Shown one piece after another: positions 34,210-50,980 of a DNA stretch of 64,000 nt. Origin of the DNA: a virus. The DNA lies in the IMG/VR virus record IMGVR_UViG_3300028840_003851; one strand, written 5' to 3'. Every line of letters begins with the position of its first letter. Within the stretch, counting starts at the first letter, position 1. Both the position numbers and the translations under genes were made by a program. The notes beneath the pieces were generated by a model. That model did no database searches. It was given only the letters and a program-made list of their open reading frames with translations, and had not been told where the DNA came from.

Positions 34210-35448
34210 TCAGACTTGGATTGTGGGGTTACCCGTCGACACTGAGGCGCTAAAGACCGCACCAGCAGAGATGATTCCCGGTGTTGTAGCGGGGGGAGCA
34301 CCAATGATGATGGGGATGGGTGCAACCGTGGTGAACAGCACCTGAGAGCCAACGGAGGCTACCGGCTTGGAGCCTCCGTTTATCTTCGTCACACCAGAGC
34401 TGATGTCCATTGCGTCACCGCCCTCAATACGCATGGTACCGCCAGCCTTGATGGTGATGTTCTTCTTGCTCTCTATGTAGATGTCGTCCTCTGCAACAAT
34501 CTTTATCTTCCCCTTAAATCCTAGGAAGACACTAGACCTAGAGCCTAGGTACACGCCACCAGCCTTGTCTATAAAGAAACGGAGCTTCGTGCTGTCTATT
34601 GCCGTGCTATTCGGCTCTCCTCCAGCAGCGTTGAACCCTTCGGGGGACACTGTGAGCTCGTACACCACTGGGTCGTCTGTACCTATCTCCAGCTCCTCTA
34701 GGTCCTCCTGCCACCCGTCACCAGGCTCCGCCATGGCGTCGAATGTTCCGGCACATACTCTGACGCTGGCCTCGCTCTGGTTAGCGAACAGCCTGAATGT
34801 ATGCTTGTAGCTGGTAGGCAGCGTGTCGTCCGGTGCTCCTTGGCGAACACCCCAGCTGATAGAGCCACCAGTGTTGTGATGCCTGTACGTCTGCGAGATG
34901 TCCTCAACCAGGTTCTGCAGCGGTATGTACAGCCTCTGCGCCAGCTCTGTGGAGCCTATCTGGAGAACTCCTCCTCTATGCAGAACAACGAAGTTGTTAT
35001 CCCTACCCCTCATCACGATGTCACCGGGCTTACTCCGAGACCTTCCTCCTGCAAACGTGTTTGAGCTCGTTTCGTCTGCTGCCTCATCACCCTCTGCAGG
35101 GACGTCTCGGTCCACCTGCTCTATCGGCATTATGAAGCACAGAACGAAAGGGGGAGGCCCATCACTAGGGATGCACACATAGCACTTAGCCCCTACCTCC
35201 GGGCATACGTACACTCCGTCTCCTCTATTAGAGTGGAGGTACGGTGAGGCCACCTGTATATCCATGAAGTGCAGCTGGTCGTACTTAGACACCACATCTA
35301 CAGTCCACGTCGCCATGTTAAGGCCAGTTACCACGCATTCTATTATGTGCGCTCCTACTCTGCCCTCTGGCTGTGTCCATGTTGTACGGAAGGTGGAGCG
35401 ATAAAGGGGGCTCTCGCTCTCATACGTTTTTACACCCTTGAGCGGCAT
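34210..35448 (-). CDS. Baseplate spike/Gp5-gpV-like protein
   Basis: OB-fold-like PEVGAKCYVCIPSDG; C-terminal beta-repeat IKIVAEDDIYIESKKNITIKAGGTMRIEGG and a GSKPVASVGS apex motif. Confidence 0.65.
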   Translation of the reverse strand: MPLKGVKTYESESPLYRSTFRTTWTQPEGRVGAHIIECVVTGLNMATWTVDVVSKYDQLHFMDIQVASPYLHSNRGDGVYVCPEVGAKCYVCIPSDGPPPFVLCFIMPIEQVDRDVPAEGDEAADETSSNTFAGGRSRSKPGDIVMRGRDNNFVVLHRGGVLQIGSTELAQRLYIPLQNLVEDISQTYRHHNTGGSISWGVRQGAPDDTLPTSYKHTFRLFANQSEASVRVCAGTFDAMAEPGDGWQEDLEELEIGTDDPVVYELTVSPEGFNAAGGEPNSTAIDSTKLRFFIDKAGGVYLGSRSSVFLGFKGKIKIVAEDDIYIESKKNITIKAGGTMRIEGGDAMDISSGVTKINGGSKPVASVGSQVLFTTVAPIPIIIGAPPATTPGIISAGAVFSASVSTGNPTIQV

Positions 35449-38400
35449 TAGTACGCGTGCTCCGGTACGTCTAGAAGTCTAGTAAGACCTGGGGTTCTCT
35501 TGGCATGCTCCTTCGTCACACCAAACTCAGCTCCGTATGCGATGCCAGGAACAGGGTGTACACCGTGTATGTGCGACACAGCTCCTGTAGCCGCCGAGTC
35601 CATGATGGTGCTTCTAAGCCTCTCGTGCTGCAGCTTAGCCATCCAGTCCTGCTGAGCTTGGAGTGGGGCGAAGTCCACCCCCTTCAGTATAGGTGAATGC
35701 ACTGTCGGCTTCTTGCCCGCCTTCACGAGCTTCATGTTCTGCTCTCTTATCACAGACGCAGGCATTATCTCTCCCTTCAGAAGATACGGAGCATCCCCTG
35801 GGTCACGTATCTTCGTCGTGTTCGTCATCCCCTTAACTACCGTCTCCACGTGCTGCCTTCTTACTCCTTCCTCAGCGTAAATCTTGTGCAGCTCGTCTAC
35901 AAGGTGGTTCTGCACCTTCTCGAAGTTGTTGGTAGCCTTGTAGAGGTCCTTAGGATTGACCACTGTTCTTGAGGGGTCAGACAAGGATGTTCCGGCCTCT
36001 ATCTTGTCCCCAACCTTAGGCGGCCTCCAAGGAGAGTCATCGTCTACTGAGAACAAAGAGCGTCCCTTCTTATCCTTGCCCACATGGTGGGCTTTACCCC
36101 CGACCCACACCTTGGTACCGGTCTTGTCCCTCTGTATCTTCTCAACCCTGCCCGATGTCATGGCTAAGGTGGCTGAGTTCGCTATCTTGTCCGGCATAGA
36201 GGTCAGCTGCTGAACTCTCGCAAACTGGTCTGCAACCGACGCCTTGGGCGTCCACACCCCTCCACTGTGGAACGCCTTCATAGGGAGCTGCACTGAGCGC
36301 TCTCCGAGAGACTGTGCGGCGAGGATACCCACGTTGGTACCTACGGGGTACCGGTTACCATCTGCGCCCAGCCCTGCGCACTTCTGGCAGAGCCCTTGTC
36401 CGTGCGTACATTTAAGGGCGCTGCGAACTACAAGCTGGGCATTCTTGTCTGCTCTACGCATCTTTCCCAAGATGTCCGGTGTCAGCACCGTCCCAGCAGG
36501 GACCTCGAGACCTTTGGCCTTGAACGACCTTGCAAGGGTCCTGTCGTACGCCCCCTCGTCACCGACAGACATCGATACACCCCGGTCCGTCTTGCAGTCA
36601 TCGCCAGTTACAACAAGGTTCACGGTGTTCTGCACCAGCTTCTTGGAGAAGTAGCCTGGCTCCGACACCTCTTGAACCTTTCGTACAGAGCCCCTGCGTG
36701 CACCAGTGGCAGCCGTCCAATACCCTCCAAAGTCCATGCCCTCCGCGTAGGACTTGTCGACCGGTACCGGAACTGGCGAGCCAGTAGAGTCGACCATCAT
36801 CACAGGAGCTAAGGCCAGCTGCTTGTACTGGTCCCACCCCGGCTTGTTGCCTGACGATAGCATGGTTGCCAGATTGTTCTTTGGGAGCTTGGACCTGTGC
36901 TCCTTGTCCATCTCTGCACTAGCCTTAGCCCATACAAGGGGTATCTGGCGCTCCTTCTCCGCCTCGGACATCTTACTGGCGCGTATCAAGTCTACTCTCT
37001 TCTTTGCCATCCCTAGATGCTTGTCTCTGGTAGCTTTGTCCGGCTCTAGGTCCTCAAGCCCTAAGGAGTGTGCCCCCATCGGGATGTACATCTTGGTCTT
37101 GTCTGGTCGCTCCGCGTCCTCTATTGCCTGTCTACCCTTCTGTGCTGGGTTAGGAACAGACACAAGCCCGTTAGCAGCTTCAAACCCAAACTTCATCAGC
37201 TTGTGCGCCGAGTCTCCGAAGTCACCCTTGTGGTTCTTCGCTAGCTCCGAGTAGAGCTTAGTGATTCCCTTCTTGTCTAACGTGGGAAGAGACTCTATGG
37301 CCTTCTCCTGCATACCATCTGGAAGGGCAGACGCTACAAGCATCCTTCCTGGAGTGGTCTTCTTGCCTCCTACCGTCGCCAGCTCCGTCATACCCAGCTC
37401 CCCTCGTTGAGCAGCTTGCAGCGCCTCTGTCGGGCTCTTGTAGCTCTTACGACTGACCTTATCTACCTTGGTCATCTTGTAGAGACCCATAGCGCTGTCT
37501 AGACTAGGCTGGTACGTGACCTTTCCTGACGCCTCGGCGTACAGGTTCTTTGACGGGAGCATGCCCTTCGCCTCCTCAACAGCCTCCCTTCCTACGGGGA
37601 CGTAGGCGCTCATTGTATCCCCGTCAAAATCGGCATTGAAGCCGCCCGTCACCAACGGGTGAATCTTTATCGCCTTACCTCCTACAAGCTTTGTTTTGAA
37701 CGCCTGTACGGAGTGCTTGTGCAGCACGGGGTCTCTCTTCAGGATTACAGGACGTTCATCAGCGACAAGCTCTATCGCCCTGAGCACTGATGGGTTCTTA
37801 GTAGCCTTCTTATCGGCGAGCATAGACCTCGCCTCTAGTGGGTTTCTAGCTGCACCCGTCTCTACTAGCTTTCTGGCAACGAACGGTCGCATCAGCTTAA
37901 GCGCGTAGTCCTTAGGCATCCCCACCTCATCTACCCCGAGAGAGGGCTCAGGGACGATGACAGAGCGCATAGAGAGGTCTTGCCTTCGGTTCATTAGGGT
38001 CTTCTGGAAGAACCCCTCCTTAGGGGAGCTACCATGAATCTGCTGCAAGATTCCTTTGTACTTATCGTCCTCTCCAAATGTACCGACACCCATCACAGCC
38101 TTGACGCCATCATATAGACTCTTTCTAGCCTTTCGCTTGGCCGTGTTCTTGTCGAGAATCTCCTTCATAGAGTCCTTCTTGAGAGAGTCGTTACCCTGCG
38201 CTAGAAGCTGGTACAGCCCGTTAATGTCCTCCCACTTAATGGAGCCATCCTTCATTACAGATGCTGGACGCATCTGCGGCGGGATTACAGGAAGGTTCTC
38301 TAGAACATACGCCTCCGACGGTTTAGCGCCAATCTGCTTAAGTGCACGCAGGTACTTTATCTTTTTGACGGTAGAGTCCATCTCCTGCGTTGGCGCTCCG

Positions 38401-41400
38401 TGAGCCATGCCTTTAGGGACGGGCATCTCTTTAAGCTTCTTCTGCTGCGTCGCTAGCTCCTTGTTTACGTCTATCTTGTCTAGAAGGCGCTTTATCCCCG
38501 GTCCCCCCGTTAGAGCTCCAGGAGTGTCTAGAGCCACTATGTTTCCCTTCTCGTCTACCGCCTGGTCACCGCCAACAATACCTGTGTAATCCTTCTCTTT
38601 CAGGCCGGTTAGCTTCTGAATCGCAGTCTCGAAGACAGGGTTGGGTACGGGCTCTGCTAGCTTGATGTGGTTCCACCTCTTACCGCCGTGACCGCCTGTT
38701 ATCTTGGGGTCGAAGAGACCCCCTCTCTTAGGGACGGGCTCTCCGTTCTTATCTAGCTTTGTGTAGACAAGCTCAGCGGGCTTAGGAATTGCCCCGCTGG
38801 ACATGTCCTTTATCTGCTTATTCGTAAGCGGCAGAAGCTGTATGTTGTGGCCCTTCTTCTCTACATTGACGCCGGCCGCCTTCAACATCGATGTGAACTT
38901 GTTGAAGGAGAACGTTGGGCGGGGGGTAGGTAGAGGGGTTCCAGACTGTATCGCAGACCACACCTCTCTGTGCTGGCCTGCCCAGCCAAAGGGTCTGGGG
39001 TCGTCTCCCTCGCTCTTGATGGTCTGCATCTCCCTGATATTTGCCTTGGCCCCGTGCGCCAACAGGGAGTAGATGCCCAGTGGGCTCATGCGCTGCCCGC
39101 CAGTCTTCTTCCCACCTATAGGTAGAAGGTTGTTGTCGTAGCTCTCTGGCTCGTTGTCGCCTTTTAAGGGCATGCCTGAGCGTACCGCTGTCTTCTTGTC
39201 TATCTGATGGGTCAGCTTTAGCATGTGCTGGGGGCCCACGAGAACCTTCCCCAGACTCTGCTTGGTGACGGGGTCTATGAGCTCCTCCTTGTCCTCGATG
39301 CCATGCTCCTTGAGAGCCTTCTTGACCATCGCAAGGTTGTCGGCACCGGGTGCGAAGTTCTCCACAATGAATGGCTTGCCAGTCTTCTCTGCTACCTTCC
39401 CTGCGGCCGTCTCTAGTATCTGAGACGGGTTCATTCTGCCGGGAACTCCTGCGGGGTTGAGGGCTACATCGATGGGCTTACCATCCCTCGTATGTGGCAT
39501 CTCCTTATCTGGGAGGACACAGTTACCAGACCACACTGGGATGCCCAAACGACGCACGTAGATGATGTGGTTAGGAACGTCGACGCAGTAGACCCTCCCC
39601 TTGTACTCTTCCCAGCGCTCGTTACAGTACCTCTTATCGTTGTTCGTCCACACCTCGTCTTTCAAGGACCACCGAACGACAAGCTCTCCAGGCTTAGGCT
39701 CCTTAATGTTTGCAGAGAACCCTAGCTTCAAAGCTAGCTCCTGATAGTCATCAGCTAGCCTAGGGGAGGAGGTAAACAGCTCATAGCGAGTGTGGTTGTC
39801 CTTCGCTCTATAGTAAACACCACCGTCCCCCATAAACAGCGCATCAGCCAAAATCCTAAGCTGTCTCTGCGAGAGTACGAGGAGCTCACGAGGTATGAAC
39901 TTATCCTTAGCCTTACCGAACTGCTTTAGCCATGCGTGAAGCTGGGGGTCGGAGAAGGTAATCCTAGTAGCCTCTTTATAGGTACTGTACCCGAGTCGCT
40001 CAATCACGGAGCATATTCGCTCATATTCCTCTGGGTGTACGCTGCGAGTCTGCGCGATGTGTATGTGGGAGCTACCTCCAATACACCCCTCTGTAAGCCA
40101 AAGCCCGAAGAGCTCCAAAAACAGGTCTGTGTCGTACTTCCTAGGGGCAGAGAGCTTCTTGTGCCTCTTGGGGGCGTCTGGTCTACCAGGGATAGTAATC
40201 TCCTCGAGCTCCTCCCCCTCCCATACCCCAGTGCGAAGGTGTAACCGAGGCATCCCAAAACACTCCTTCGCAGGCTGTAGGGAATAGCTGCCCCTACGAG
40301 TACGAACGTAATGACGATGCTCTGGTGTCACCAGTAGGTTGAGTCTACGACCGCTATACGAGTACATCTTCCCGTCATGTTGCTGGTCAACGTACCCAGT
40401 AGGAGCTTGGTACTCAATCTTCCTGGTCGCCGGGTTGAGCGTACAAATCAGCTCCGTCCGGTCTAGGTCCTTGAAGAACCTCCAGCCCTTATCGGTTAAC
40501 ACCTCGGAATCATTAGAGAAACATGTTACAATCCCTTTGTTTCCATGACGCCCAGTCAGCTTATCCCCCGCTTTCATAGGCTCCACGGTCTTTACGTGGA
40601 CCGTTACCTCCTTGCCCTTCTTGTGTACCCCTACCACCTCCCCAGGGTGGTCAGACTCCCAGCGCAGAGAGATGTCTGTGTGCTGTCCGGACAGGCTCTT
40701 GCCTATGGAGCCCAGGTCCATCCTGTCCTTCATCTTGTACGGACGCATGGCTAGGACCAGAGGGTCTCCCGGCCTTACTGTCTGCCCTACCTTCACGACC
40801 CCCTTCTCGTCTAGCTTACCGTGCTGCTCCTTACCGAATGCCTCAGGGTGCTGGTTCCTGAACTTCTTGGGATCTGTGACAACCTGGTCCTCAAGGGCTA
40901 TAGGGAGCTTCTGCATGTGCACTGAGGACAGCTTCTTTGCCGCGCTCTCACTAACTACAACGCCATCCTCGAAGTTGTACCCCTTGTAGGGTAGATAGGC
41001 CGCTCTAAGATTTGTACCTAAGGCCAGCTTACCGTCTTTGGTAAAGTTCGTGTCCGCTACAGACTGCCTTCTCTTCACACTGTCCCCCACCTTTACCAGG
41101 GGGGTGGAGGTGATGACGGCTTTAGGGTCGTTCAACGGGAAGTTGTTGTACAGCTGTACCTCGTGCTTCTTCCCAGACTTATCCTTAACGACGATGGCGT
41201 CGCCCTTAACGCTTACTACCTCTCCGTCGACGGGAGACATGTGCCCTGACGCTTTACCTAGTAGCTCCTCGAACGTCTGTAACCCCTCCTTCTTAGAGCC
41301 CGTACCTACCTGTACTAAGGGGGCCTCTCTATGCTCTAAGGAGATAGACTGCTCTATGTGCTGCCCAGCGTATGTAGCTCTGTTCCCGGAGCAGCTGCCG

Positions 41401-42878
41401 ATGAAGGGAACTAGATTCGTCGTAGTGTTTAGAGCCTGAGACGCGTGCCGCTGTATGTAGTCTACGTTGTCTAGACTCCCGGTTGTTAGCTTGTTCCCCT
41501 TTCCGGCAATCTTTATCTCCTTGCCTACAGGCTTGGGCTTACCCTTATCCCACGTAACCTGGTCTGCCAGTGCTACGTTGGCGTTTACAAACTTGCTTGG
41601 CGGGACATCCTCCATTTTACCCGTCTTAACGTTGTACATCGGTACAACGGGCTCATTACCCTTCTTGCGGACCCCCATAGGGAGCCGTAGCGTGATACCC
41701 GTCTTCTCCCCCTCAGGAGTGCGTAGCGGGTCTAGGTACCCAAGGTGCGATGGGTTTATAGCCTTGGCATCCTCGGTCACGCGCTGTACAGACTGTATAC
41801 CGCCAGGTCCCAGCGGAGTTGTCTGAGAGGCGGAGGAGATAATCTCTACAGGGTTAATCTGGTCCGCCATTCGCGCCATTGAGGTACGGAACACCTGGCG
41901 TACAGGCTCGTTAAAGGAATCAAAGTTTACTATCTTCCGAATATCCGCCTTCGGATTGTCTATCTGCCTTTTACCCCTGGTCTCTACAATCTTCTTTGTC
42001 TTCCAGTGAGTGAGCTTGTCGTACGCAAAGTCCTCTACGGAGCGAAGGTTCTTGTACTCTAAGCTATCTCTATCATCCTCAGGAGCACCGGAGTGAACAT
42101 CAAGTATTCTCTTCGTCGCCTTGCGAAGAACGTCTCCCGTTATGTGGTCAGACTCTACACCCAGGGTAGACTTGGCCACCTCAGGCTGCATCTTAGTCGC
42201 TGTCATAGCCTCCTTGAAGTAGGCAGCAGCCTCCTTCTTAGATGGTGCGGCAGACTTCTTATCAGCCTTGTAGAACGCCTCCAGCGCTCCCTCAACTGCT
42301 CTGGCGCTCTTGTTCGCCTCTAACATCTCCTTGCCCCAGCTTTTTTGGAGCTGCTCGTCTGTAACCCCCATCTCCCTCATCAAGGGGTACAGCGGTATGT
42401 TGGACTTCTTTCTACGAAGAGACAGCTGCTTGCTGGCCGGGTCTAGCTCTATCTTAAAGTCTCTACCATCAGGAGCGTTAAAGGCCGTGTGCACCTTACC
42501 CTTAACATCACGCCTCGTGTACGCCCCTGGCTTCAGCTGCCACTGGCTGTCTACCTGGTACTCTTTACCGTCTATGATGTGGCTGAAACGACTGGTTACA
42601 GTCGGTATAGACGCTATCCGGACTCTCTCTTTAGACGTCTCCCCTGTCTCCTTGTTCTCTAGCCTCAACGTAGCATACACAGGAGTAGCAAAGGTCTTAC
42701 CTTTTATCTTGTGGTCGTGCTGCTTCCTGATGTCGTCGGGGTCTGTCCCTATATCTGCCTCTAGCTTCTCAAGGTGGAGCTCACGCTTCTTTCCCTTGAT
42801 AGGGAAGTGCTCACCGATACCCTCAAGAACCTTAGCCTTCAGCGCCTCGTTTGCCTCTTTGTGACTAGCGTACGGCAT
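35448..42878 (-). CDS. Single-chain DNA-directed RNA polymerase (beta-beta' fusion) with intein
   Basis: Beta motifs GPGG, TPEG, GYNFEDG, GDKLTGRHGNKG, NPAGVPGRMN, GGQR; beta' motifs GLFDPKITG, LPVIPPQMRP, RQDLSMRSVI, catalytic NADFDGD, bridge helix GARRG...GYFSKKL, trigger loop AAQSLGE...AFHSGG; all in one frame. Confidence 0.97.
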   Translation of the reverse strand: MPYASHKEANEALKAKVLEGIGEHFPIKGKKRELHLEKLEADIGTDPDDIRKQHDHKIKGKTFATPVYATLRLENKETGETSKERVRIASIPTVTSRFSHIIDGKEYQVDSQWQLKPGAYTRRDVKGKVHTAFNAPDGRDFKIELDPASKQLSLRRKKSNIPLYPLMREMGVTDEQLQKSWGKEMLEANKSARAVEGALEAFYKADKKSAAPSKKEAAAYFKEAMTATKMQPEVAKSTLGVESDHITGDVLRKATKRILDVHSGAPEDDRDSLEYKNLRSVEDFAYDKLTHWKTKKIVETRGKRQIDNPKADIRKIVNFDSFNEPVRQVFRTSMARMADQINPVEIISSASQTTPLGPGGIQSVQRVTEDAKAINPSHLGYLDPLRTPEGEKTGITLRLPMGVRKKGNEPVVPMYNVKTGKMEDVPPSKFVNANVALADQVTWDKGKPKPVGKEIKIAGKGNKLTTGSLDNVDYIQRHASQALNTTTNLVPFIGSCSGNRATYAGQHIEQSISLEHREAPLVQVGTGSKKEGLQTFEELLGKASGHMSPVDGEVVSVKGDAIVVKDKSGKKHEVQLYNNFPLNDPKAVITSTPLVKVGDSVKRRQSVADTNFTKDGKLALGTNLRAAYLPYKGYNFEDGVVVSESAAKKLSSVHMQKLPIALEDQVVTDPKKFRNQHPEAFGKEQHGKLDEKGVVKVGQTVRPGDPLVLAMRPYKMKDRMDLGSIGKSLSGQHTDISLRWESDHPGEVVGVHKKGKEVTVHVKTVEPMKAGDKLTGRHGNKGIVTCFSNDSEVLTDKGWRFFKDLDRTELICTLNPATRKIEYQAPTGYVDQQHDGKMYSYSGRRLNLLVTPEHRHYVRTRRGSYSLQPAKECFGMPRLHLRTGVWEGEELEEITIPGRPDAPKRHKKLSAPRKYDTDLFLELFGLWLTEGCIGGSSHIHIAQTRSVHPEEYERICSVIERLGYSTYKEATRITFSDPQLHAWLKQFGKAKDKFIPRELLVLSQRQLRILADALFMGDGGVYYRAKDNHTRYELFTSSPRLADDYQELALKLGFSANIKEPKPGELVVRWSLKDEVWTNNDKRYCNERWEEYKGRVYCVDVPNHIIYVRRLGIPVWSGNCVLPDKEMPHTRDGKPIDVALNPAGVPGRMNPSQILETAAGKVAEKTGKPFIVENFAPGADNLAMVKKALKEHGIEDKEELIDPVTKQSLGKVLVGPQHMLKLTHQIDKKTAVRSGMPLKGDNEPESYDNNLLPIGGKKTGGQRMSPLGIYSLLAHGAKANIREMQTIKSEGDDPRPFGWAGQHREVWSAIQSGTPLPTPRPTFSFNKFTSMLKAAGVNVEKKGHNIQLLPLTNKQIKDMSSGAIPKPAELVYTKLDKNGEPVPKRGGLFDPKITGGHGGKRWNHIKLAEPVPNPVFETAIQKLTGLKEKDYTGIVGGDQAVDEKGNIVALDTPGALTGGPGIKRLLDKIDVNKELATQQKKLKEMPVPKGMAHGAPTQEMDSTVKKIKYLRALKQIGAKPSEAYVLENLPVIPPQMRPASVMKDGSIKWEDINGLYQLLAQGNDSLKKDSMKEILDKNTAKRKARKSLYDGVKAVMGVGTFGEDDKYKGILQQIHGSSPKEGFFQKTLMNRRQDLSMRSVIVPEPSLGVDEVGMPKDYALKLMRPFVARKLVETGAARNPLEARSMLADKKATKNPSVLRAIELVADERPVILKRDPVLHKHSVQAFKTKLVGGKAIKIHPLVTGGFNADFDGDTMSAYVPVGREAVEEAKGMLPSKNLYAEASGKVTYQPSLDSAMGLYKMTKVDKVSRKSYKSPTEALQAAQRGELGMTELATVGGKKTTPGRMLVASALPDGMQEKAIESLPTLDKKGITKLYSELAKNHKGDFGDSAHKLMKFGFEAANGLVSVPNPAQKGRQAIEDAERPDKTKMYIPMGAHSLGLEDLEPDKATRDKHLGMAKKRVDLIRASKMSEAEKERQIPLVWAKASAEMDKEHRSKLPKNNLATMLSSGNKPGWDQYKQLALAPVMMVDSTGSPVPVPVDKSYAEGMDFGGYWTAATGARRGSVRKVQEVSEPGYFSKKLVQNTVNLVVTGDDCKTDRGVSMSVGDEGAYDRTLARSFKAKGLEVPAGTVLTPDILGKMRRADKNAQLVVRSALKCTHGQGLCQKCAGLGADGNRYPVGTNVGILAAQSLGERSVQLPMKAFHSGGVWTPKASVADQFARVQQLTSMPDKIANSATLAMTSGRVEKIQRDKTGTKVWVGGKAHHVGKDKKGRSLFSVDDDSPWRPPKVGDKIEAGTSLSDPSRTVVNPKDLYKATNNFEKVQNHLVDELHKIYAEEGVRRQHVETVVKGMTNTTKIRDPGDAPYLLKGEIMPASVIREQNMKLVKAGKKPTVHSPILKGVDFAPLQAQQDWMAKLQHERLRSTIMDSAATGAVSHIHGVHPVPGIAYGAEFGVTKEHAKRTPGLTRLLDVPEHAY
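39522..40523 (-). mobile_element. Intein (334 aa) with LAGLIDADG endonuclease in the RNAP beta region
   Basis: GNKGIVT|CFSNDSEVLT...VYCVDVPNHIIYVRRLGIPVWSGN|CVLPDKEMP; motifs FGLWLTEG and LFMGDG. Confidence 0.93.
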
Positions 42879-42953
42879 GACCTATAGATTCTACCTCATC
42901 AATGACAGTAGTGCAGCGTTACCAGCACGTGCAAGCTTCTCCTGATTTCTAGC

Positions 42954-42966
42954 ATAAGAGTAGTGA
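42954..42966 (+). promoter_or_regulatory. Putative phage promoter ATAAGA-N4-TG-R
   Basis: ATAAGA GTAG TG A, divergent from the RNAP gene. Confidence 0.65.
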
Positions 42967-42992
42967 AGAGGACATCAACCTTAACAAAGGAG

Positions 42993-43145
42993 ATGACGAT
43001 GTCTTTCCCCGATGATGAGGGGCTTTTAAGCCCCGACCAGCAAGAGCAAGAGCAAGATGACTCCTACCCCGAGTCCGACGAGGACTCGGGTGCAGCGTGG
43101 TCGGCGATATCCAGCGCCGACTACCTGTACGAGGAGGAGGACTGA
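42993..43145 (+). CDS. Small highly acidic protein
   Basis: SD AAGGAG; about 50 aa, rich in D/E. Confidence 0.6.
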   Translation: MTMSFPDDEGLLSPDQQEQEQDDSYPESDEDSGAAWSAISSADYLYEEED

Positions 43146-43273
43146 TGTCCGCGCTCTTCTGGTCCTCCTTCGTTGTTGGGTTCCTATCTGGTCTAGGTTT
43201 CTGGGCTAGAGACGAGCTCGACAAGAGGGAGCGTAAGGATGGTAAGGATGCTTCGGCATCCCTCCAGCCTTAA
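43145..43273 (+). CDS. Small single-TM protein (42 aa)
   Basis: TGATG coupling; MSALFWSSFVVGFLSGLGFWARDELDKRERK... Confidence 0.5.
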   Translation: MSALFWSSFVVGFLSGLGFWARDELDKRERKDGKDASASLQP

Positions 43274-43898
43274 CGGGGCTAGAAGGGTTGCGGACGAGTG
43301 GGGGGTTACCGGTACTGTGCTTTGGCACCCCGGTAGCCCCCCACGTTCTTGGACTGTCCACAGCCTTTTTAGACCTGTAAACAGCGTAGGTCTGCGCGCA
43401 CGACTGGTAGATGACAAAGGTTTCATTACCTTCATAAATCAGATGGAGCTAGAGATGCTTCTCGGTACCGCATCTCAGGGCTCGTGGTGCTCGTGGGCAG
43501 GTAGACCCTACCCGGCCCCCGGTGGGCCTGAGTGGGAGGGTCTTTTAGCTACGGAGGGAGACCTTCTTGATGACCTGTACGACAGAGAGCAGTACATCAG
43601 GTACATGTTCCCCGACAAGATACCAGGAGGTGCTGAGATAAGAAGACGTGTGTACACAGGTGGGCGAAATGTAGAGCAACTTCTTGTCCTTTTATGGGAT
43701 AAGGACCCTGAGACAGGCATAGAGCCTGACAGTAGATACGAGACGTTAAGCCGCCGATGGGCAGCCGTTGAAGAGGAGGTACAAGAATGGACATGCTTGC
43801 CCTTAACAGACAGATTGGGGTGGGTTCCCTCGCTGTCAGTGGCCACAGATGCAGCTACTGCAACAGGGACATTCCCCTATCCGTACCGGGGGATGTAG
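43239..43898 (+). CDS. Hypothetical protein (219 aa)
   Basis: Long ORF in the island. Confidence 0.55.
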   Translation: MVRMLRHPSSLNGARRVADEWGVTGTVLWHPGSPPRSWTVHSLFRPVNSVGLRARLVDDKGFITFINQMELEMLLGTASQGSWCSWAGRPYPAPGGPEWEGLLATEGDLLDDLYDREQYIRYMFPDKIPGGAEIRRRVYTGGRNVEQLLVLLWDKDPETGIEPDSRYETLSRRWAAVEEEVQEWTCLPLTDRLGWVPSLSVATDAATATGTFPYPYRGM

Positions 43899-44395
43899 AG
43901 GATATCGTTCTTATGCAGGTTGTTTCGGGGGTGAGGGACGGTAGAAACGTCATCACTCGGATAGAGACCGCAGATGACGGCGACTACCTGTTCGCCCCCC
44001 ACTTCTTCTGCATGATGTGCTGGGAGGAGATGACAGACGCACTTACAGACGCGAGCAAGTCACACAGACTGCATAGAACCATCTACCACAGCGAGCATCT
44101 GGTTAGGTGCTTTGAGTGTAACTCCGCTGTGCTGGATGGAGAGATTTTCGCGACGGTGTGCTCCGGCGCACTACAACCATCCCCAAGAACACCATTTGGT
44201 GTACCGGAGGTAGATTTCAAAGGAACGGATAGGCTAGAGAGACCTGTAGTTCTGTGCATCGGCTGCATGAAGCTCTTAGACAGCTGTGTCAAAGAGCTGT
44301 GGAACGCTGATGTGTCTCAAGGCGATGAATGTGATGAGGGTACGTACAAACGGTGCTGGCGTCAGCTGAAGTGCACCGACTGCATTGTGAGGTAG
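43787..44395 (+). CDS. Cys-rich multi-Zn-finger protein
   Basis: SD GAGGAGGT; CSYC, CMMC, CFEC, CIGC, CTDC. Confidence 0.7.
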   Translation: MDMLALNRQIGVGSLAVSGHRCSYCNRDIPLSVPGDVEDIVLMQVVSGVRDGRNVITRIETADDGDYLFAPHFFCMMCWEEMTDALTDASKSHRLHRTIYHSEHLVRCFECNSAVLDGEIFATVCSGALQPSPRTPFGVPEVDFKGTDRLERPVVLCIGCMKLLDSCVKELWNADVSQGDECDEGTYKRCWRQLKCTDCIVR

Positions 44396-44397
44396 AT

Positions 44398-45648
44398 ATG
44401 AGAGAAAAGAAGGTAAAGGTAACATCGGACTTCTTCACGAAGATTCCGTATGAACGGTTCGAGGAGGTTCTGTACATCCTCCTCCAAACCCCTAGGGACC
44501 TAAACCCCTGGGATAAGGGTTGTAGGATGGGCATCCCCGCCATCTTCTGGGGGATGTCGGGTATCGGCAAGTCGGAGCGAATCGAGGCTGTGGTGGGGGG
44601 CTCTATGGGGATGACGCAGGAGCGCCTGCTCCCTGTGTCGTACCCTCCGGAGAACTTCGTAGGCGTCCCCGTGATTGTGGGAGACACCGTTAGGAGCGAG
44701 GTCCTCATAGGCCAGATTCGGCGCCTCATCCGAGGTGGCGTTAACGACGCTGTGCTCGTCATAGACGAGGCCAGCGACGCAGATAGGCTCACGCAGGGCG
44801 CCATGCAACCACTCATCCTGGACAGGGTGGCCGGGGATGACAAGCTACCCCCAGGGGTACGAGTTGTGCTGCTGGCCAATCCTCCTGAGTACTCAGCGGG
44901 GGGCTACGAGCTGGTGGCCGCCCTGGCCAATCGCATGGGGCACTTCATGGTGCCTGTGGAGGAATCGATGCTCGACTCGTTCTGCGAGCACATCATGGAC
45001 CCAACCCCGCCCAAGCTAATCCCGTTCAAGAACGGGATAGAGGCCATCAAGGACGGGTGGCAGGCAGCATGGTCTGGGGCGTCCGCGGAGATGGTATCCT
45101 TCCACCAGACCATGAGGAGCATCGAGCTCCTACACAACCAGCCTAAGGCTGGTAGCACAGAGGGAGGAGGGGCTTGGCCCTCGCCCCGGACGTGGAAGAC
45201 CGCCTTCCAGTGCATCGCTGCCCTTCGGTGCTTGGACATGGACCGAGGGCTCGAGCCCTACTTCCTTAGAGCGTTCATCGGGGAAGCAACCGCACGCCAG
45301 TACGAGAAGTGGAGCGTGTACCGCGACCTACCCACACCAAAGGACATCCTTACCAGGAAGGCGGGGTGGGACCTCACAGAGGACACCCGCCCAGACAAGG
45401 TGTCCATGATGTGCCGTGCTGTGGCGTCCTATGTGGTGGCAGCAGATAAGCAAGGTTGCGACAAGCTAGCTGCTGTTGCCTTTGAGTGGATTGGCCTGCT
45501 CTGCGACCTCCACTTCAGAGACGTTGTGGTGCCGCACTGCAATTGGCTCTCCCGTAAGGGAGTGGGGAGGAAGAGCAAGAGTGAGGAGGTTCGTAGAGCC
45601 GCCAAGGCGGTCGTACGAAAGCTAGGAGCTGACGGGGTGGTGGGATGA
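44398..45648 (+). CDS. MoxR-like AAA+ ATPase
   Basis: GMSGIGKS Walker A, VIDEA Walker B, ANPPE, LANRM, PSPRTW. Confidence 0.85.
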   Translation: MREKKVKVTSDFFTKIPYERFEEVLYILLQTPRDLNPWDKGCRMGIPAIFWGMSGIGKSERIEAVVGGSMGMTQERLLPVSYPPENFVGVPVIVGDTVRSEVLIGQIRRLIRGGVNDAVLVIDEASDADRLTQGAMQPLILDRVAGDDKLPPGVRVVLLANPPEYSAGGYELVAALANRMGHFMVPVEESMLDSFCEHIMDPTPPKLIPFKNGIEAIKDGWQAAWSGASAEMVSFHQTMRSIELLHNQPKAGSTEGGGAWPSPRTWKTAFQCIAALRCLDMDRGLEPYFLRAFIGEATARQYEKWSVYRDLPTPKDILTRKAGWDLTEDTRPDKVSMMCRAVASYVVAADKQGCDKLAAVAFEWIGLLCDLHFRDVVVPHCNWLSRKGVGRKSKSEEVRRAAKAVVRKLGADGVVG

Positions 45649-47009
45649 GCCCATCAGCCGAGCTCGAAGCTTGGCTGCGGCAGCATGGTCTCTACGGGGA
45701 CCGTGCTGCTTTGCTTCAAAAGGCCAAGGTACAGCTAGAGGTAGCCAGGGCGCGCTTCGAGAGAATCGTACCCTACTTCACCGTCCTTCTGCGCATGCAC
45801 TCCACCTACTGGGTGGACCACATGTTTGCGATTACCGGTAGCCCTATCGGGGTGACCGATAGGATGGTGATGCTCATAGACCCTGGGTGGGTAGTTCACA
45901 TCAACGACCCGATGATGCTGGCCGCAGTGCTGTGGCATGAGGTGGAGCACCCGAACCGAGGGATGTACCGCCTTAAGGCACTTCCAGACCAACGTCTCGC
46001 TAACCTGGCGGGGGACCTCGCCATCAATTGGAGGATACGGGATACGGGGCACAAGCTCCCCGAGTGGGTAGCCTACCCAGAGAGCTACGGCTTAGAGAAG
46101 GGTCTCACCCTGGAGGAGTACTACAAGGCCCTGGACAAGGGAGGAAAAGGAGAGGATGGGGAAGAGCAGGAGGGAGACCGCGGGCCGTCTAGGATGACAG
46201 AGGACTGGCAGCCCACAGGAGACAGCTTCGGTACAGGCAAGTGCGGCTCAGGTGCGGGCAATAGCCTAGGAGACATCGAGGAGGAGGCCAACGAGCGCAT
46301 GGGGTGCTCCGACGCCGAGAAGGAGCTAGCTAAGGAGGTTACGAAGGAGGCGATAAGCAAGCACGTAGCAGAGCACGGAAGAGGTACGATTCCGGCAGAC
46401 ATGATAGAGAGCTTAGACTACGAGCTGTCTGCCGGAGTAGTACCGTGGAGAAGAGAGCTTCGGTCTATTTTGCGCCATGCTTCAGGGAAGCTTAGAGCAG
46501 GTAGGACGGATAGGTCTTGGGCGCGCCCGTCGCTACACTCTCTTGTTAGAGGTGAGCCTAGACCCGGACCGTGCCGGAGAGAGCCAGAGGTTCTGATTGT
46601 TCGCGACACCTCAGGCTCTATGGGTGCGGAGCAGCTTAAAAGTGCCAACGATGAGGCGGTGGGTGTGCTGAAGCAGATGGGGCTACAGGAGGTGTGGTTC
46701 TTAGATGCAGACGCAAAAGCCTACAACCCCAGAAGAGTAAACCTTAGAGACATACCAAAGCTCGATGTAGAGGGTAGAGGAGGTACATCGTTTGTCCCTG
46801 CCTTTGTCGCGGCAGAGAGCCTGAAGCCTAGACCGCAGCTTCTCATCTACATGACAGACGGAGACGGAGATGCACCCGAGGAGCCCCCCAGGGGTATGGC
46901 GGTGGTATGGTGCATCGTGCCTACACCTTACGGAAGGAGACCAGCAGAGTGGGGACATCTAGTGATTGTGAGCGACGACCAGAAGCTGAGAGAGCCTTAC
47001 AGGAGGTAG
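45645..47009 (+). CDS. DUF2201-type metallopeptidase-like plus vWA domain protein
   Basis: LWHEVEH, NLAGDLAIN; MIDAS DTSGSMG, GRGGTSF, YMTDGDG. Confidence 0.85.
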   Translation: MSPSAELEAWLRQHGLYGDRAALLQKAKVQLEVARARFERIVPYFTVLLRMHSTYWVDHMFAITGSPIGVTDRMVMLIDPGWVVHINDPMMLAAVLWHEVEHPNRGMYRLKALPDQRLANLAGDLAINWRIRDTGHKLPEWVAYPESYGLEKGLTLEEYYKALDKGGKGEDGEEQEGDRGPSRMTEDWQPTGDSFGTGKCGSGAGNSLGDIEEEANERMGCSDAEKELAKEVTKEAISKHVAEHGRGTIPADMIESLDYELSAGVVPWRRELRSILRHASGKLRAGRTDRSWARPSLHSLVRGEPRPGPCRREPEVLIVRDTSGSMGAEQLKSANDEAVGVLKQMGLQEVWFLDADAKAYNPRRVNLRDIPKLDVEGRGGTSFVPAFVAAESLKPRPQLLIYMTDGDGDAPEEPPRGMAVVWCIVPTPYGRRPAEWGHLVIVSDDQKLREPYRR

Positions 47010-49009: not shown

Positions 49010-50980
49010 CTAAATTGCGGGGGTCTCCCTACGTGGCGGTAGGACCTCTGGGTTGGGCCTCATATCTACTCCTGCAGGGGCTCCTTGAGGCGCACCCCCC
49101 TCCGCGCCTCCCATCTGAGAGAGCATCTGCTCTACCATCTGTGCGAGCTCAGGGGACTGTGCCGCAATGGTTTGCAATGCTGTCTGCTGCTGGTCAGGCG
49201 GCATCTGAGAGAGCTGCTGGGCCAGCTGCTGAGCCATGGCAACTATATCGACCCCTGTACCCTCGGGAGACTGCTCAGGCCCCATACGCTGCCCCATATC
49301 CAGAGGACTGCTCATCGCCATCTCAGCTCCAGGCGGAGCGCCCCCTACCTGCTGTCCTCCGGCAGTGCCCCCTCCAGCCTCAGGACCCCCAGGCTCACCT
49401 GGTGCTTGAGGCGCCGCCTGAGCCTCCATGGCAGCCTGCTGAGCCTTGACCTGCGCCTTGGACATGATGAGCTGGCTCTCTGCCTGTACCTCGGCCATGG
49501 CTAGCTGCTGCTTGCGGGTTGACTCTAGCCGCTTCTCCGTCTCCTGCACCATGAGCTCGTCCTCCTCCTGCTGACTTAGGTCAGAGTCCGACAGTAAGGT
49601 TGTGTCTGAGAGCTTCTGGGCCTGATTGTACTGGAATAGCAGGGCTTTCCTCTGCAGGTCGTCGGCCATCTTGAATGGCTTGAATCTAGCCTTCACCAAT
49701 GGCCAACGCATGTAGTTGCTGACCTCCCGGATTACCCAGCGAAGGAACTGCGTGTGCCGTGTAAGGTACCCAATGAAGGTGTTCTCCATGATGCGCAAGC
49801 TCACGTTAGAGCCGGAGTACGACAGCCCACCAAAGATGAGCTCCTTCGGTACTCCCATACCCCCTAGTATCTGCTCTGAGTGAATCTGCATCTCCTGCGT
49901 CATCAGAAGAGCTCTGCCATCCCCGCCAAGAGTCTGCTGACCTATAGGTAGAGGTAGGATGGGAATGTAGTTGGGGTCCATTCTCCATCTTGCTATCTCA
50001 GTCGCTATGTGGTCCTTCCACTTGCTGAGATTGATTGTCGTGTAGGGGTCACTTGTACCTGAGCCAGCCTGCGGGAACAGCACACGCAGAGGTACTATGT
50101 GCTCTAGCAGAATTGCCTCCTGCGCCTTCTTCATCACCTGAAGGTAGAACGTGTCCTTCAGCACAGGCATGAGCAGAGGCATGCCCCATCCTCTATCCCT
50201 TCCTCCCAGGGACGGGCGCTTAAAGAAGAAGAAGTTCTCCGAGAACTTGATTCCCTTGTTCTTCTGCAGAGCCTGCATGAACCGCTGAGGTGTCGTCTCT
50301 ACAACGTCCTTCTTACCGATGGAGATGTCGCTCTTAACGCTCTGAGGGATGGTGTAGTAGTACGTAGACTCCCCTGTAAGCTCGTTGTAACGAACATCCA
50401 GGTCCTCTATGTTCCAGCGCATAAGCTTTATGCCGGATGCGTCCCTGTAGTAGAAGTCGTGGGCATCCGCTTCCTCTGTACTACCGCACCTAGGGCACGA
50501 CAGAAGGAACTGAAAGTTGCGCATCCTGTAGTGCTCTCTAATCTTGTCTGCCCGCTCAGTGAACCCACAGGTCTTACAGACAAGGTACTTCTTGAATGGG
50601 TACGAGATGCTAACTGCGCACGCACCAAACGTGTGATAGTCAAGTCCGCACTCGACCTGGAATGGGCGTATGCGTAGATGGTCCTGTAGGTACTCCGTCC
50701 ATCTGCTAACCACCTCAGGTCTGTCATGGTCTATCACTATGTCAGTGATAGGGTACTCAGACAGCTTGAACACCGTGGCGTTGATTAGAGGGTTGGTGAA
50801 GAAGTAGTACCTACACCACCGAAACATCCTCTTTATAGAGGCCGGTAGCCAGGTGTGTGCGATATCAAAGAACGGGGACGGGTACGTAAGACCTCCGTCC
50901 TGTATACCTCCAGATATCCTCCCTCTAGTGCGTGCGTACCTATAGCTAGGTCCGCACGTCATGGCTCCTGTTACGCTCAT
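49010..50980 (-). CDS. Portal protein with Zn-finger insert and long Q/P/G-rich tail
   Basis: Portal-like segments NPLINATVFKLSEYP, GWGMPLLMPVLK, GGMGVPKELIFGG; structural context. Confidence 0.72.
   Translation of the reverse strand: MSVTGAMTCGPSYRYARTRGRISGGIQDGGLTYPSPFFDIAHTWLPASIKRMFRWCRYYFFTNPLINATVFKLSEYPITDIVIDHDRPEVVSRWTEYLQDHLRIRPFQVECGLDYHTFGACAVSISYPFKKYLVCKTCGFTERADKIREHYRMRNFQFLLSCPRCGSTEEADAHDFYYRDASGIKLMRWNIEDLDVRYNELTGESTYYYTIPQSVKSDISIGKKDVVETTPQRFMQALQKNKGIKFSENFFFFKRPSLGGRDRGWGMPLLMPVLKDTFYLQVMKKAQEAILLEHIVPLRVLFPQAGSGTSDPYTTINLSKWKDHIATEIARWRMDPNYIPILPLPIGQQTLGGDGRALLMTQEMQIHSEQILGGMGVPKELIFGGLSYSGSNVSLRIMENTFIGYLTRHTQFLRWVIREVSNYMRWPLVKARFKPFKMADDLQRKALLFQYNQAQKLSDTTLLSDSDLSQQEEDELMVQETEKRLESTRKQQLAMAEVQAESQLIMSKAQVKAQQAAMEAQAAPQAPGEPGGPEAGGGTAGGQQVGGAPPGAEMAMSSPLDMGQRMGPEQSPEGTGVDIVAMAQQLAQQLSQMPPDQQQTALQTIAAQSPELAQMVEQMLSQMGGAEGGAPQGAPAGVDMRPNPEVLPPRRETPAI

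What the first reader, a model, noticed from the sequence alone, without database searches (positions are those of the whole stretch)
35448..42878. Single-polypeptide beta-beta' RNA polymerase with bacterial-type motifs, inside the virion gene block
Seen: all beta and beta' catalytic motifs lie in one frame of 2476 aa (about 2140 aa after splicing), much shorter than host beta+beta'. The beta' N-terminal Cys4 Zn finger is missing (GLFDPKITGGHGGKRWNHIKL), while the later Zn site (DCKT...C...C..C) remains. No alpha, omega or sigma gene is visible in the window. Established: fused rpoBC occurs in Helicobacter/Wolbachia; phage two-barrel RNAPs are split (phiKZ, AR9) or very divergent single chains (crAss-like, YonO). 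Inference: a compact, possibly virion-packaged enzyme that recognises ATAAGA-N4-TG itself or with a small unknown factor.
Basis: partly seen in the sequence, partly recalled or inferred. Interest (0 to 1): 0.7.

Follow-up and report, generated by a model that had tools for sequence, protein, structure and literature searches.

The report
Single-chain bacterial-type phage RNA polymerase
One 2476-codon gene of an uncultured ~178-kb phage encodes both large subunits of a bacterial-type RNA polymerase as a single slimmed chain interrupted by a self-splicing intein, a layout shared by many uncultured phages that I found described in no paper.

Summary
Window 35448-42878 (-) is one uninterrupted 2476-aa frame. 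It reads beta, then beta', with a 334-aa LAGLIDADG intein inside the beta GRHGNKG motif; the spliced protein would be 2142 aa.

It is not an assembly artefact. About 50 of roughly 70 related IMG/VR loci, and nearly all of the 150 best cluster representatives, carry the same single-ORF fusion. Cultured relatives (Salmonella phage Arash, Vibrio phage D69, ~31% identity) belong to one nested clade that split the gene again.

- **Lost relative to E. coli:** the lineage-specific inserts and the beta' N-terminal zinc ribbon.
- **Kept:** catalytic motifs, the second zinc site, clamp helices and flap tip.
- **Partners:** relatives have one polymerase locus per genome and no alpha-NTD or omega. A sigma70-family factor (Arash gp10 type) is present in 17 of 20 records.

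I could not check a sigma in this phage's own genome.

The gene lies between portal, a spike-like gene and terminase. Arash proteomics found the polymerase and sigma in virion preparations, so packaging is plausible but unproven.

This scan met the same family before on another genome. I found no publication on it.

The parts
35448..42878 (-). Whole 2476-aa beta-beta' precursor ORF. The stop codon is at 35448-35450.
40524..42878 (-). N-extein, residues 1-785: beta N-terminal and central part, up to GRHGNKGIVT.
41799..41894 (-). Counterpart of rifampicin cluster I (residues 329-360). It carries Q513R, F514M, H526S, R529Q and S531T in E. coli numbering.
40533..40553 (-). Beta catalytic motif GRHGNKG, three residues before the intein.
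39522..40523 (-). Class-1 intein with a LAGLIDADG homing endonuclease, residues 786-1119. It has Cys1, a TPEH block B, two LAGLIDADG motifs and ends SGN followed by Cys+1.
38847..39521 (-). C-extein part 1, residues 1120-1344: the beta C-terminal part.
38817..38876 (-). Beta/beta' junction (…GVNVEKKGH|NIQLLPL…). There is no linker. It is modelled as an ordered beta-hairpin with pLDDT above 90.
35451..38846 (-). Beta' module, residues 1345-2476.
38649..38723 (-). Segment that replaces the beta' N-terminal Cys4 zinc ribbon (GGHGG loop).
37617..37637 (-). NADFDGD magnesium-binding motif.
36378..36596 (-). Second zinc site, Cys2095/2157/2164/2167.
34210..35448 (-). 412-aa gene that overlaps the polymerase stop (TAATG). 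Candidate baseplate hub or spike (gpV/gp5/VgrG-like). It is conserved directly downstream in 36 loci.
49010..50980 (-). Portal protein, homologous to Arash gp204. It flanks the polymerase in relatives.
28068..29852 (-). Large terminase (GpA type). It ends the conserved block.
42954..42965 (+). ATAAGAGTAGTG promoter-like motif. It faces away from the polymerase gene in the divergent intergenic region.

Best explanation
The gene encodes the complete catalytic core of a bacterial-type two-barrel RNA polymerase as one chain.

1. After translation, the LAGLIDADG intein must splice out of the beta GRHGNKG motif. This gives a 2142-aa (~240 kDa) beta-beta' protein. The beta C-terminus runs straight into beta' residue ~30.
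2. Because the two large subunits are covalently joined, the enzyme needs no alpha dimer as an assembly platform and no omega.
3. It keeps the sigma docking surfaces (beta' clamp helices and beta flap tip). It most likely initiates with a phage-encoded sigma70-family factor of the Arash gp10 type, at phage promoters. The ATAAGA class is a candidate.
4. Its rifampicin pocket is heavily substituted, so it probably makes phage transcription independent of, and differently inhibited from, the host enzyme.
5. The gene belongs to the portal-spike-terminase block. The protein is plausibly packaged and delivered with the DNA to start early transcription.

**Shown:** the frame, motifs, intein anatomy, fusion conservation, absence of alpha-NTD and omega homologues in relatives, sigma co-occurrence, and synteny.

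**Inferred:** splicing, activity, the sigma partnership, rifampicin insensitivity and virion packaging.
For: - **Domains and closest structures:** domain order and motifs. The closest solved relatives are bacterial beta' (Thermus, 1e-101) and beta (6e-72). AR9 scores only 9e-15.
- **Comparison with E. coli:** 2035 positions align at 27.7% identity. The deletions fall at SI1, SI2, SI3 and the zinc ribbon. The flap tip, clamp helices, NADFDGD and the second zinc site are retained.
- **Structure model:** the model of residues 1121-1720 has an ordered junction hairpin and a clamp coiled-coil. It matches bacterial beta' (Foldseek 1e-17).
- **Fusion is conserved:**
- **One polymerase locus per genome:**
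- **No alpha-NTD or omega in relatives:** PF01193 and PF01192 hit 0 of 20 records while the controls hit 14 of 14.
- **Sigma:** Arash gp10-like sigma is present in 17 of 20 records. It is absent from both records with a separate beta/beta' layout that group with the published mReC contigs. It also lies on contigs of the same lengths as polymerase contigs.
- **Virion proteomics in a relative:** in Arash, the polymerase pieces and sigma are among the most detected virion proteins (PMC10585845).
- **Gene context:** synteny with portal, spike-like gene and terminase, and a TAATG overlap with the next gene.
- **Promoters:** sigma70-consensus promoters are depleted in the block, 2 found against 7.7 expected. 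ATAAGA-N4-TG is enriched 11 against 1.5. An ATG lies 6-8 nt after the hexamer at 6 of 9 intergenic copies, as expected of a -10-like element.
Against: - No sigma gene lies in the window. I could not read the rest of this phage's genome, so its own sigma is known only from an unchecked first-stage note.
- Sigma co-occurrence does not show which polymerase the sigma serves. Phages without a polymerase also carry sigmas for the host enzyme (PMC13282480).
- Virion evidence comes from a relative at ~31% identity. Its authors themselves allow carry-over of abundant proteins.
- The intein's penultimate residue is Gly, not the usual His.
- Activity, splicing and drug insensitivity are untested.
Confidence: 0.6

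Rival explanations
1. Non-virion polymerase. The host enzyme transcribes the first genes. The single-chain enzyme is made during infection and, with the phage sigma, takes over middle and late transcription. This resembles the T7 polymerase or the phiKZ non-virion enzyme. It is not packaged.
For: - There is only one polymerase locus per genome, whereas phiKZ-type phages and one of the two mReC-like records keep two sets.
- The Arash authors note that abundant infection-phase enzymes may contaminate virion preparations.
- Injecting a 240-kDa protein is demanding.
Against: - The gene lies inside the portal-spike-terminase block and overlaps the spike-like gene.
- The polymerase is the most detected protein in Arash virions, together with sigma.
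- Host-type sigma70 promoters are depleted around it.
Confidence: 0.25
2. Hybrid enzyme. The phage beta-beta' chain recruits host alpha2, omega and possibly host sigma, replacing only the host catalytic subunits.
For: - The sequence is bacterial-type, with flap tip and clamp helices retained.
- No phage alpha-NTD or omega was found.
- This particular phage encodes two alpha-CTD-domain proteins.
Against: - The lineage keeps its own sigma.
- phiKZ and AR9 enzymes work without alpha and omega and do not bind them (PMC7598289, PMC13282480).
- Covalent fusion removes the main need for alpha.
- The beta' C-terminal region is shortened. From my own knowledge, that region holds omega in E. coli.
- The alpha-CTD genes are absent from five complete relatives.
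Confidence: 0.1
3. Artefact or dead gene. Either a frameshift or misassembly joined two genes, or the intein insertion inactivated the polymerase.
For: None found. The only oddity is the Gly before the intein's terminal Asn.
Against: - The exact protein is on 7 contigs.
- The fused layout is present in about 50 independent loci, and an intein-free 75%-identical homologue exists.
- All other intein splicing blocks are intact.
Confidence: 0.02

Closest known systems
RNA polymerase of Salmonella phage Arash (gp206 + gp216, with sigma gp10; OQ632216, PMC10585845) and of Vibrio phages D69/D148/D181
   Same: - Same lineage in my tree.
- Beta fused to beta'.
- Beta' zinc ribbon missing.
- gp10-type sigma present.
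- Polymerase gene next to the portal gene.
- Genome of ~180-190 kb.

   Different: - There the chain is cut again at extein position ~1500, giving beta-beta'N (~1525 aa) and beta'C (~606 aa). Other genes lie in between.
- This split marks one nested clade.
- Identity to the window protein is only ~31%.
- Arash has AADYDGD instead of NADFDGD.
- In those records the genes are annotated as polymerase subunits or hypothetical proteins, and the enzyme has not been studied.
Fused rpoBC of Helicobacter and Wolbachia (cellular; from my own knowledge, not tested here)
   Same: Beta followed by beta' in one polypeptide. This shows that the two termini are adjacent in the folded enzyme.
   Different: Those are full-size cellular subunits that work with alpha2, omega and host sigmas. 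The phage chain is trimmed, lacks the zinc ribbon and has no alpha-NTD or omega gene in its relatives.
mReC phages (Weinheimer & Aylward 2020, PMC7481178)
   Same: Uncultured tailed phages with a bacterial-like, deep-branching beta/beta'. One locus with their layout is the sister branch in my tree.
   Different: - mReC have separate beta and beta' genes, often in two sets per genome.
- They have a T4-type capsid and a PF03237 terminase.
- One contig of theirs (L080) shows 23% identity to the window protein.
- The two records with that layout, L080 among them, have no gp10-type sigma.
- The terminase here is GpA type, PF05876.
phiKZ / AR9 non-canonical multisubunit polymerases
   Same: Phage-encoded two-barrel enzymes without alpha or omega. 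One of their two sets is a virion enzyme (PMC7598289).
   Different: - Their beta and beta' are each split into several polypeptides.
- They have two enzymes per genome.
- They are very divergent (AR9 9e-15 against 1e-101 for Thermus).
- Their specificity subunits have no sequence similarity to sigma.
crAss-like gp66, YonO and P23-45 tape-measure-fused polymerase (single-chain two-barrel enzymes)
   Same: Both barrels lie in one chain. The crAss-like and P23-45 enzymes are virion-delivered.
   Different: Those retain little beyond the barrels and are not recognisable with bacterial beta/beta' profiles. This protein aligns with E. coli over 2035 positions.

Membership tests
Bacterial-type multisubunit RNA polymerase core (beta/beta') | Beta barrel region with the GxHGNKG motif, and Rpb2_6/Rpb2_3 domains | tested here: met
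Bacterial-type multisubunit RNA polymerase core (beta/beta') | Beta' NADFDGD magnesium loop, and Rpb1_2 and Rpb1_5 domains (bridge helix and trigger loop region) | tested here: met
Bacterial-type multisubunit RNA polymerase core (beta/beta') | Beta' N-terminal Cys4 zinc ribbon | tested here: not met
   It is deleted and replaced by a GGHGG loop. It is also missing in Arash and D69.
Bacterial-type multisubunit RNA polymerase core (beta/beta') | Second beta' zinc site (Cys4) | tested here: met
   C2095/2157/2164/2167 are invariant.
Bacterial-type multisubunit RNA polymerase core (beta/beta') | Alpha dimer and omega subunits encoded alongside | tested here: not met
   No alpha-NTD in the window. 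PF01193 and PF01192 hit 0 of 20 related records while the controls hit 14 of 14. Use of host subunits is not excluded.
Bacterial-type multisubunit RNA polymerase core (beta/beta') | Sigma70-family initiation factor | tested here: inconclusive
   Present in 17 of 20 related records. Not in the window. The rest of this genome was not readable.
Arash/D69-type phage polymerase | Two genes: beta-beta'N (~1525 aa) plus beta'C (~606 aa) | tested here: not met
   Single ORF here. The split is confined to one nested clade.
Arash/D69-type phage polymerase | Detected in purified virions | not testable with these tools
   Known only for Arash (PMC10585845).
mReC (Weinheimer & Aylward 2020) | Separate beta and beta' genes, PF03237 terminase, T4-type capsid | tested here: not met
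   Fused gene, PF05876 terminase, 23-26% identity to loci with the mReC layout. The capsid was not examined.
phiKZ/AR9-type polymerases | Beta and beta' each split, and two enzyme sets per genome | tested here: not met
Class-1 intein with LAGLIDADG endonuclease | Cys1, block B TxxH, two LAGLIDADG motifs, terminal Asn followed by Cys+1 | tested here: met
   The penultimate residue is Gly instead of His.

The most novel reading that the evidence does not exclude
A self-sufficient, virion-delivered holoenzyme made of only two proteins: one 240-kDa beta-beta' chain and a phage sigma. It would start infection by transcribing leaderless early mRNAs from ATAAGA promoters, with no need for host polymerase, alpha or omega. 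That would be the simplest natural bacterial-type holoenzyme, and ancestral to a large, unstudied phage radiation.
Probability: 0.35. Interest if true: 0.8.

Novelty: new variant of a known kind. Interest (0 to 1): 0.62.

Why it matters
All characterised bacterial-type polymerases need an alpha dimer to assemble beta and beta'. The known phage versions are either shattered into many pieces (phiKZ, AR9) or diverged almost beyond recognition (crAss-like, YonO).

A natural, compact single chain that still aligns with E. coli over about 2000 positions, and travels with a recognisable sigma, offers several things:

- A minimal model for assembly and initiation of the bacterial enzyme.
- A test of what alpha, omega and the beta' zinc ribbon are really needed for.
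- A possible two-component, rifampicin-insensitive transcription tool.
- A marker gene for a large radiation of ~160-220-kb uncultured phages, whose only cultured members (Arash and the Vibrio D-phages) carry a derived, re-split form.

Tried and rejected
- **IMG/VR scan with the single protein:** nothing found, because the peptide patterns were too specific. The alignment-based scan worked.
- **Genome-contig scan:** returned only archaeal polymerase genes, so no host lead.
- **Whole genome:** not held for this window, and the Logan record behind the gene cannot be searched.
- **Sigma in this phage's own genome:** two protein searches for it and one contig look-up found only other phages' sigmas. 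The own sigma stays unverified.
- **Alpha-CTD proteins as conserved partners:** rejected. PF03118 is absent from five complete relatives. There are no homologues in flanks of related loci, and none in cultured phages other than bacterial contamination.
- **Membership in mReC:** rejected.
- **Downstream genes:** tblastn of them against Arash and D69 matched only the portal. The Atlas gave nothing usable for the conserved 671-aa neighbour.
- **Foldseek on the junction model:** only re-identified bacterial beta'.
- **Literature:** searches for a fused bacterial-type phage polymerase found none.
- **Phylogeny:** I did not attempt a broad tree with many bacterial phyla. My tree has a single cellular outgroup.
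- **Complex prediction:** not run. A sigma-beta' pair would pass by likeness to solved holoenzymes and would not tell phage from host partner.


Full report
**What is there.** Window 35448-42878 on the minus strand is a single 2476-codon frame with an ATG start. Pfam places, in order, Rpb2_3, Rpb2_6 (two stretches), LAGLIDADG_3, Rpb1_1, Rpb1_2 and Rpb1_5 in that one frame. HMMER against solved structures gives bacterial beta' (Thermus, 1e-101) and bacterial beta (a cyanobacterial chain, 6e-72) as best matches. The AR9 phage enzyme scores only 9e-15. The protein is therefore bacterial-type and not of the phiKZ/AR9 kind.

**The intein.** The beta match stops at …GRHGNKGIVT (residue 785) and resumes at residue 1121. 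Between them lies a 334-aa element. It begins with Cys, has a TPEH block B and two LAGLIDADG motifs, and ends …SGN before Cys1120. This is a class-1 intein with a homing endonuclease, inserted three residues after a catalytic beta motif, so splicing is obligatory for activity. The only oddity is Gly instead of His before the terminal Asn. The spliced product is 2142 aa. A 75%-identical homologue of 2117 aa lacks the intein.

**Is the fusion real?** Yes, on four lines of evidence.
- The exact protein is carried by seven contigs.
- A word-based search of 5.8 billion proteins lists 120 full-length relatives of ~2120-2170 aa, or 2440-2980 aa with inteins, on contigs up to 200 kb.
- An exhaustive HMMER search with the beta' module returns 150 cluster representatives at E <= 1e-167. 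In nearly all of them the beta' match starts near residue 950 of a 2000-4700-aa protein.
- In 74 loci analysed, about 50 encode the polymerase in a single stop-free frame.

A query-anchored FastTree (1661 columns, rooted on E. coli) puts the window in a crown group of fully fused genes. The re-split form (beta-beta'N plus beta'C, cut near extein position 1500) is confined to one nested clade. That clade contains the only cultured members, Salmonella phage Arash and Vibrio phage D69. The single chain therefore looks ancestral and the Arash layout derived. The caveats are a single cellular outgroup and a quick method.

**What was trimmed.** Aligned with E. coli beta plus beta', 2035 positions match at 27.7% identity. 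The long deletions fall where the E. coli lineage-specific inserts lie:
- beta 215-355 and beta 937-1048;
- beta' ~947-1100;
- the first ~30 residues of each subunit;
- beta' residues 64-99, which form the Cys4 zinc ribbon.

A GGHGG loop replaces the zinc ribbon. It is invariant in 12 homologues and is also seen in Arash and D69. The beta C-terminus (…GVNVEKKGH) continues without a linker into beta' (NIQLLPL…). An AlphaFold model of residues 1121-1720 gives this junction as an ordered hairpin with pLDDT above 90. It also shows a clamp coiled-coil, and the model matches bacterial beta'.

Retained features are the flap-tip segment, clamp helices, a shortened rudder, NADFDGD and the second zinc site. 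The rifampicin cluster I is heavily substituted: Q513R, F514M, H526S, R529Q and S531T in E. coli numbering. From my own knowledge, changes at these positions confer resistance in E. coli. I therefore infer, without test, an enzyme insensitive to rifampicin.

**Partners.** In the window, 73 ORFs scanned against Pfam gave no sigma, alpha-NTD or omega hit better than about 1e-4. phmmer with E. coli alpha-NTD found nothing. The scan did reveal two adjacent genes with a bacterial alpha C-terminal domain:
- 23898-24476, 192 aa, E = 1.2e-15;
- 22922-23722, 266 aa, E = 3.5e-6.

However, PF03118 is absent from five complete relatives, so these genes are accessories of this phage and not core subunits.

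I then searched 18 IMG/VR records (14 of them at least 90% complete by CheckV) plus the Arash and D69 genomes. Sixteen of the IMG/VR records carry this polymerase lineage and two have the separate-gene mReC layout:
- Each genome of this lineage has a single polymerase locus; one of the two mReC-like records has two.
- There is no alpha-NTD (PF01193, 0 of 20) and no omega (PF01192, 0 of 20). The same searches ring in 14 of 14 control genomes.
- A ~250-aa sigma70-family protein homologous to Arash gp10 is present in 17 of 20 records. It is missing from one divergent fused-polymerase genome and from both mReC-like records.
- That sigma family has 214 members in the protein collection. Several lie on contigs whose lengths equal those carrying the polymerase (188,773; 180,683; 121,428; 200,070 bp).

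Co-occurrence of the sigma with retained sigma-docking surfaces is the basis for proposing a beta-beta' plus sigma holoenzyme. I could not verify a sigma in this phage itself. The genome is not held and three look-ups found only other phages' copies. A first-stage note places an 897-nt sigma about 60 kb beyond the window, and this is unchecked.

**Context and packaging.** The 656-aa protein at 49010-50980 is the portal (tblastn to Arash gp204, 2e-81). The terminase is at 28068-29852. The 412-aa gene at 34210-35448 overlaps the polymerase stop (TAATG). It resembles baseplate hub or spike proteins (gpV, gp5 OB, VgrG) at lead level only: Atlas feature score 0.94-0.96, TM 0.44-0.49, and PHROG baseplate E = 2e-4.

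The order portal … polymerase, 412 aa, 218 aa, 671 aa, 314 aa, 150 aa, terminase is conserved in 10-49 related loci, depending on the gene. In Arash and D69 the portal directly precedes the polymerase. In Arash, mass spectrometry of virion preparations detected gp206 most often of all proteins (3516 spectra), together with gp216 and sigma gp10. The authors also allow carry-over of abundant proteins (PMC10585845). Packaging is thus plausible, at roughly even odds, but not shown.

**The promoter motif.** ATAAGA-N4-TG occurs 11 times against 1.5 expected, and none of 100 shuffles reaches that count. Nine copies are on the plus strand, at heads of small rightward genes. One copy (42954) sits in the divergent region upstream of the polymerase gene but faces away from it.
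- At six of nine intergenic copies, an ORF of 48-122 aa starts with ATG 6-8 nt after the hexamer, with no Shine-Dalgarno.
- The other three copies have 30-45-nt leaders with strong AGGAG sites.

That spacing is what a -10-like element producing leaderless mRNAs would give. It supports a promoter role but does not say which polymerase reads it. Sigma70-consensus promoters are depleted across 27.5-44.5 kb, 2 against 7.7 expected.

**Comparison with the literature.** Weinheimer and Aylward (PMC7481178) described metagenomic 'mReC' phages with bacterial-like polymerases. Their tables list separate beta and beta' proteins, often in two sets, with T4-type capsids and PF03237 terminases. No ~2150-aa entry appears in them. 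One of their contigs (L080) is only 23% identical to this protein, and a locus with the same gene layout is the sister branch in my tree. Reviews of jumbo-phage polymerases (PMC7598289; PMC13282480, 2026) describe phage multisubunit enzymes as lacking sigma homologues and do not mention a single-chain bacterial-type form. Seven full-text searches found no paper on this family. The library lacks most subscription journals, so this absence is not proof.

This scan had already met the family on another genome, a 185-kb wetland phage with a 2128-aa protein. My analysis reaches the same reading independently. It adds the derived status of the Arash-type split, the intein anatomy, the feature map against E. 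coli, and the leaderless-promoter spacing.

**Verdict.** This is a new variant of a known kind: a bacterial-type polymerase core condensed into one chain, free of alpha and omega, probably paired with a phage sigma and possibly carried in the virion.

Noticed in passing
window 22922-24476 (-): Two adjacent genes (266 and 192 aa) carry a bacterial RNA polymerase alpha C-terminal domain (PF03118, E = 3.5e-6 and 1.2e-15). By eye, each is preceded by an HTH-like segment. The DNA-contact residues of E. coli alpha-CTD look conserved in the 192-aa protein. The domain is absent from five complete relatives and from cultured phages.
   Followed up: partly
window 4728, 4998, 7710, 47793, 48087, 48534 (+): At six ATAAGA promoter-like copies, the gene's ATG starts 6-8 nt after the hexamer with no Shine-Dalgarno. 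This implies leaderless mRNAs. Three other copies have normal leaders.
   Followed up: partly
window 707-3643 (-): A second intein-bearing gene in the window: a 978-aa ORF with LAGLIDADG_3 (1.8e-11) and a weak intein-splicing hit. The host protein was not identified.
   Followed up: no
relatives of the polymerase (proteins P0120, P0125, P0128, P0130, P0132 and others): Many family members are 2400-4700 aa. Their match breaks at beta'-module position 463/464, inside NADFDGD, and at about 610-648 and 916. Recurrent inteins in the most conserved catalytic loops are the likely cause.
   Followed up: no
window 44353-47009 (+): A rightward ATPase plus DUF2201 (metallopeptidase/VWA) pair sits between portal and polymerase on the opposite strand. 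It is conserved at that place in 13 related loci.
   Followed up: no
protein P0373: A 46%-identical homologue of the phage sigma is annotated in the 13.6-Mb genome of Pendulispora rubella (Myxococcota). This is a possible prophage remnant or host lead.
   Followed up: no
G001 (locus L015 genome): L087, L092, L097: One relative carries two further small sigma-like ORFs (194 aa with regions 2 and 4; 232 aa with region 4) besides the gp10-type sigma. This hints at a sigma cascade.
   Followed up: no
window 27500-44500: Sigma70-consensus promoter matches are depleted: 2 found against 7.7 +/- 2.4 in shuffles.
   Followed up: no
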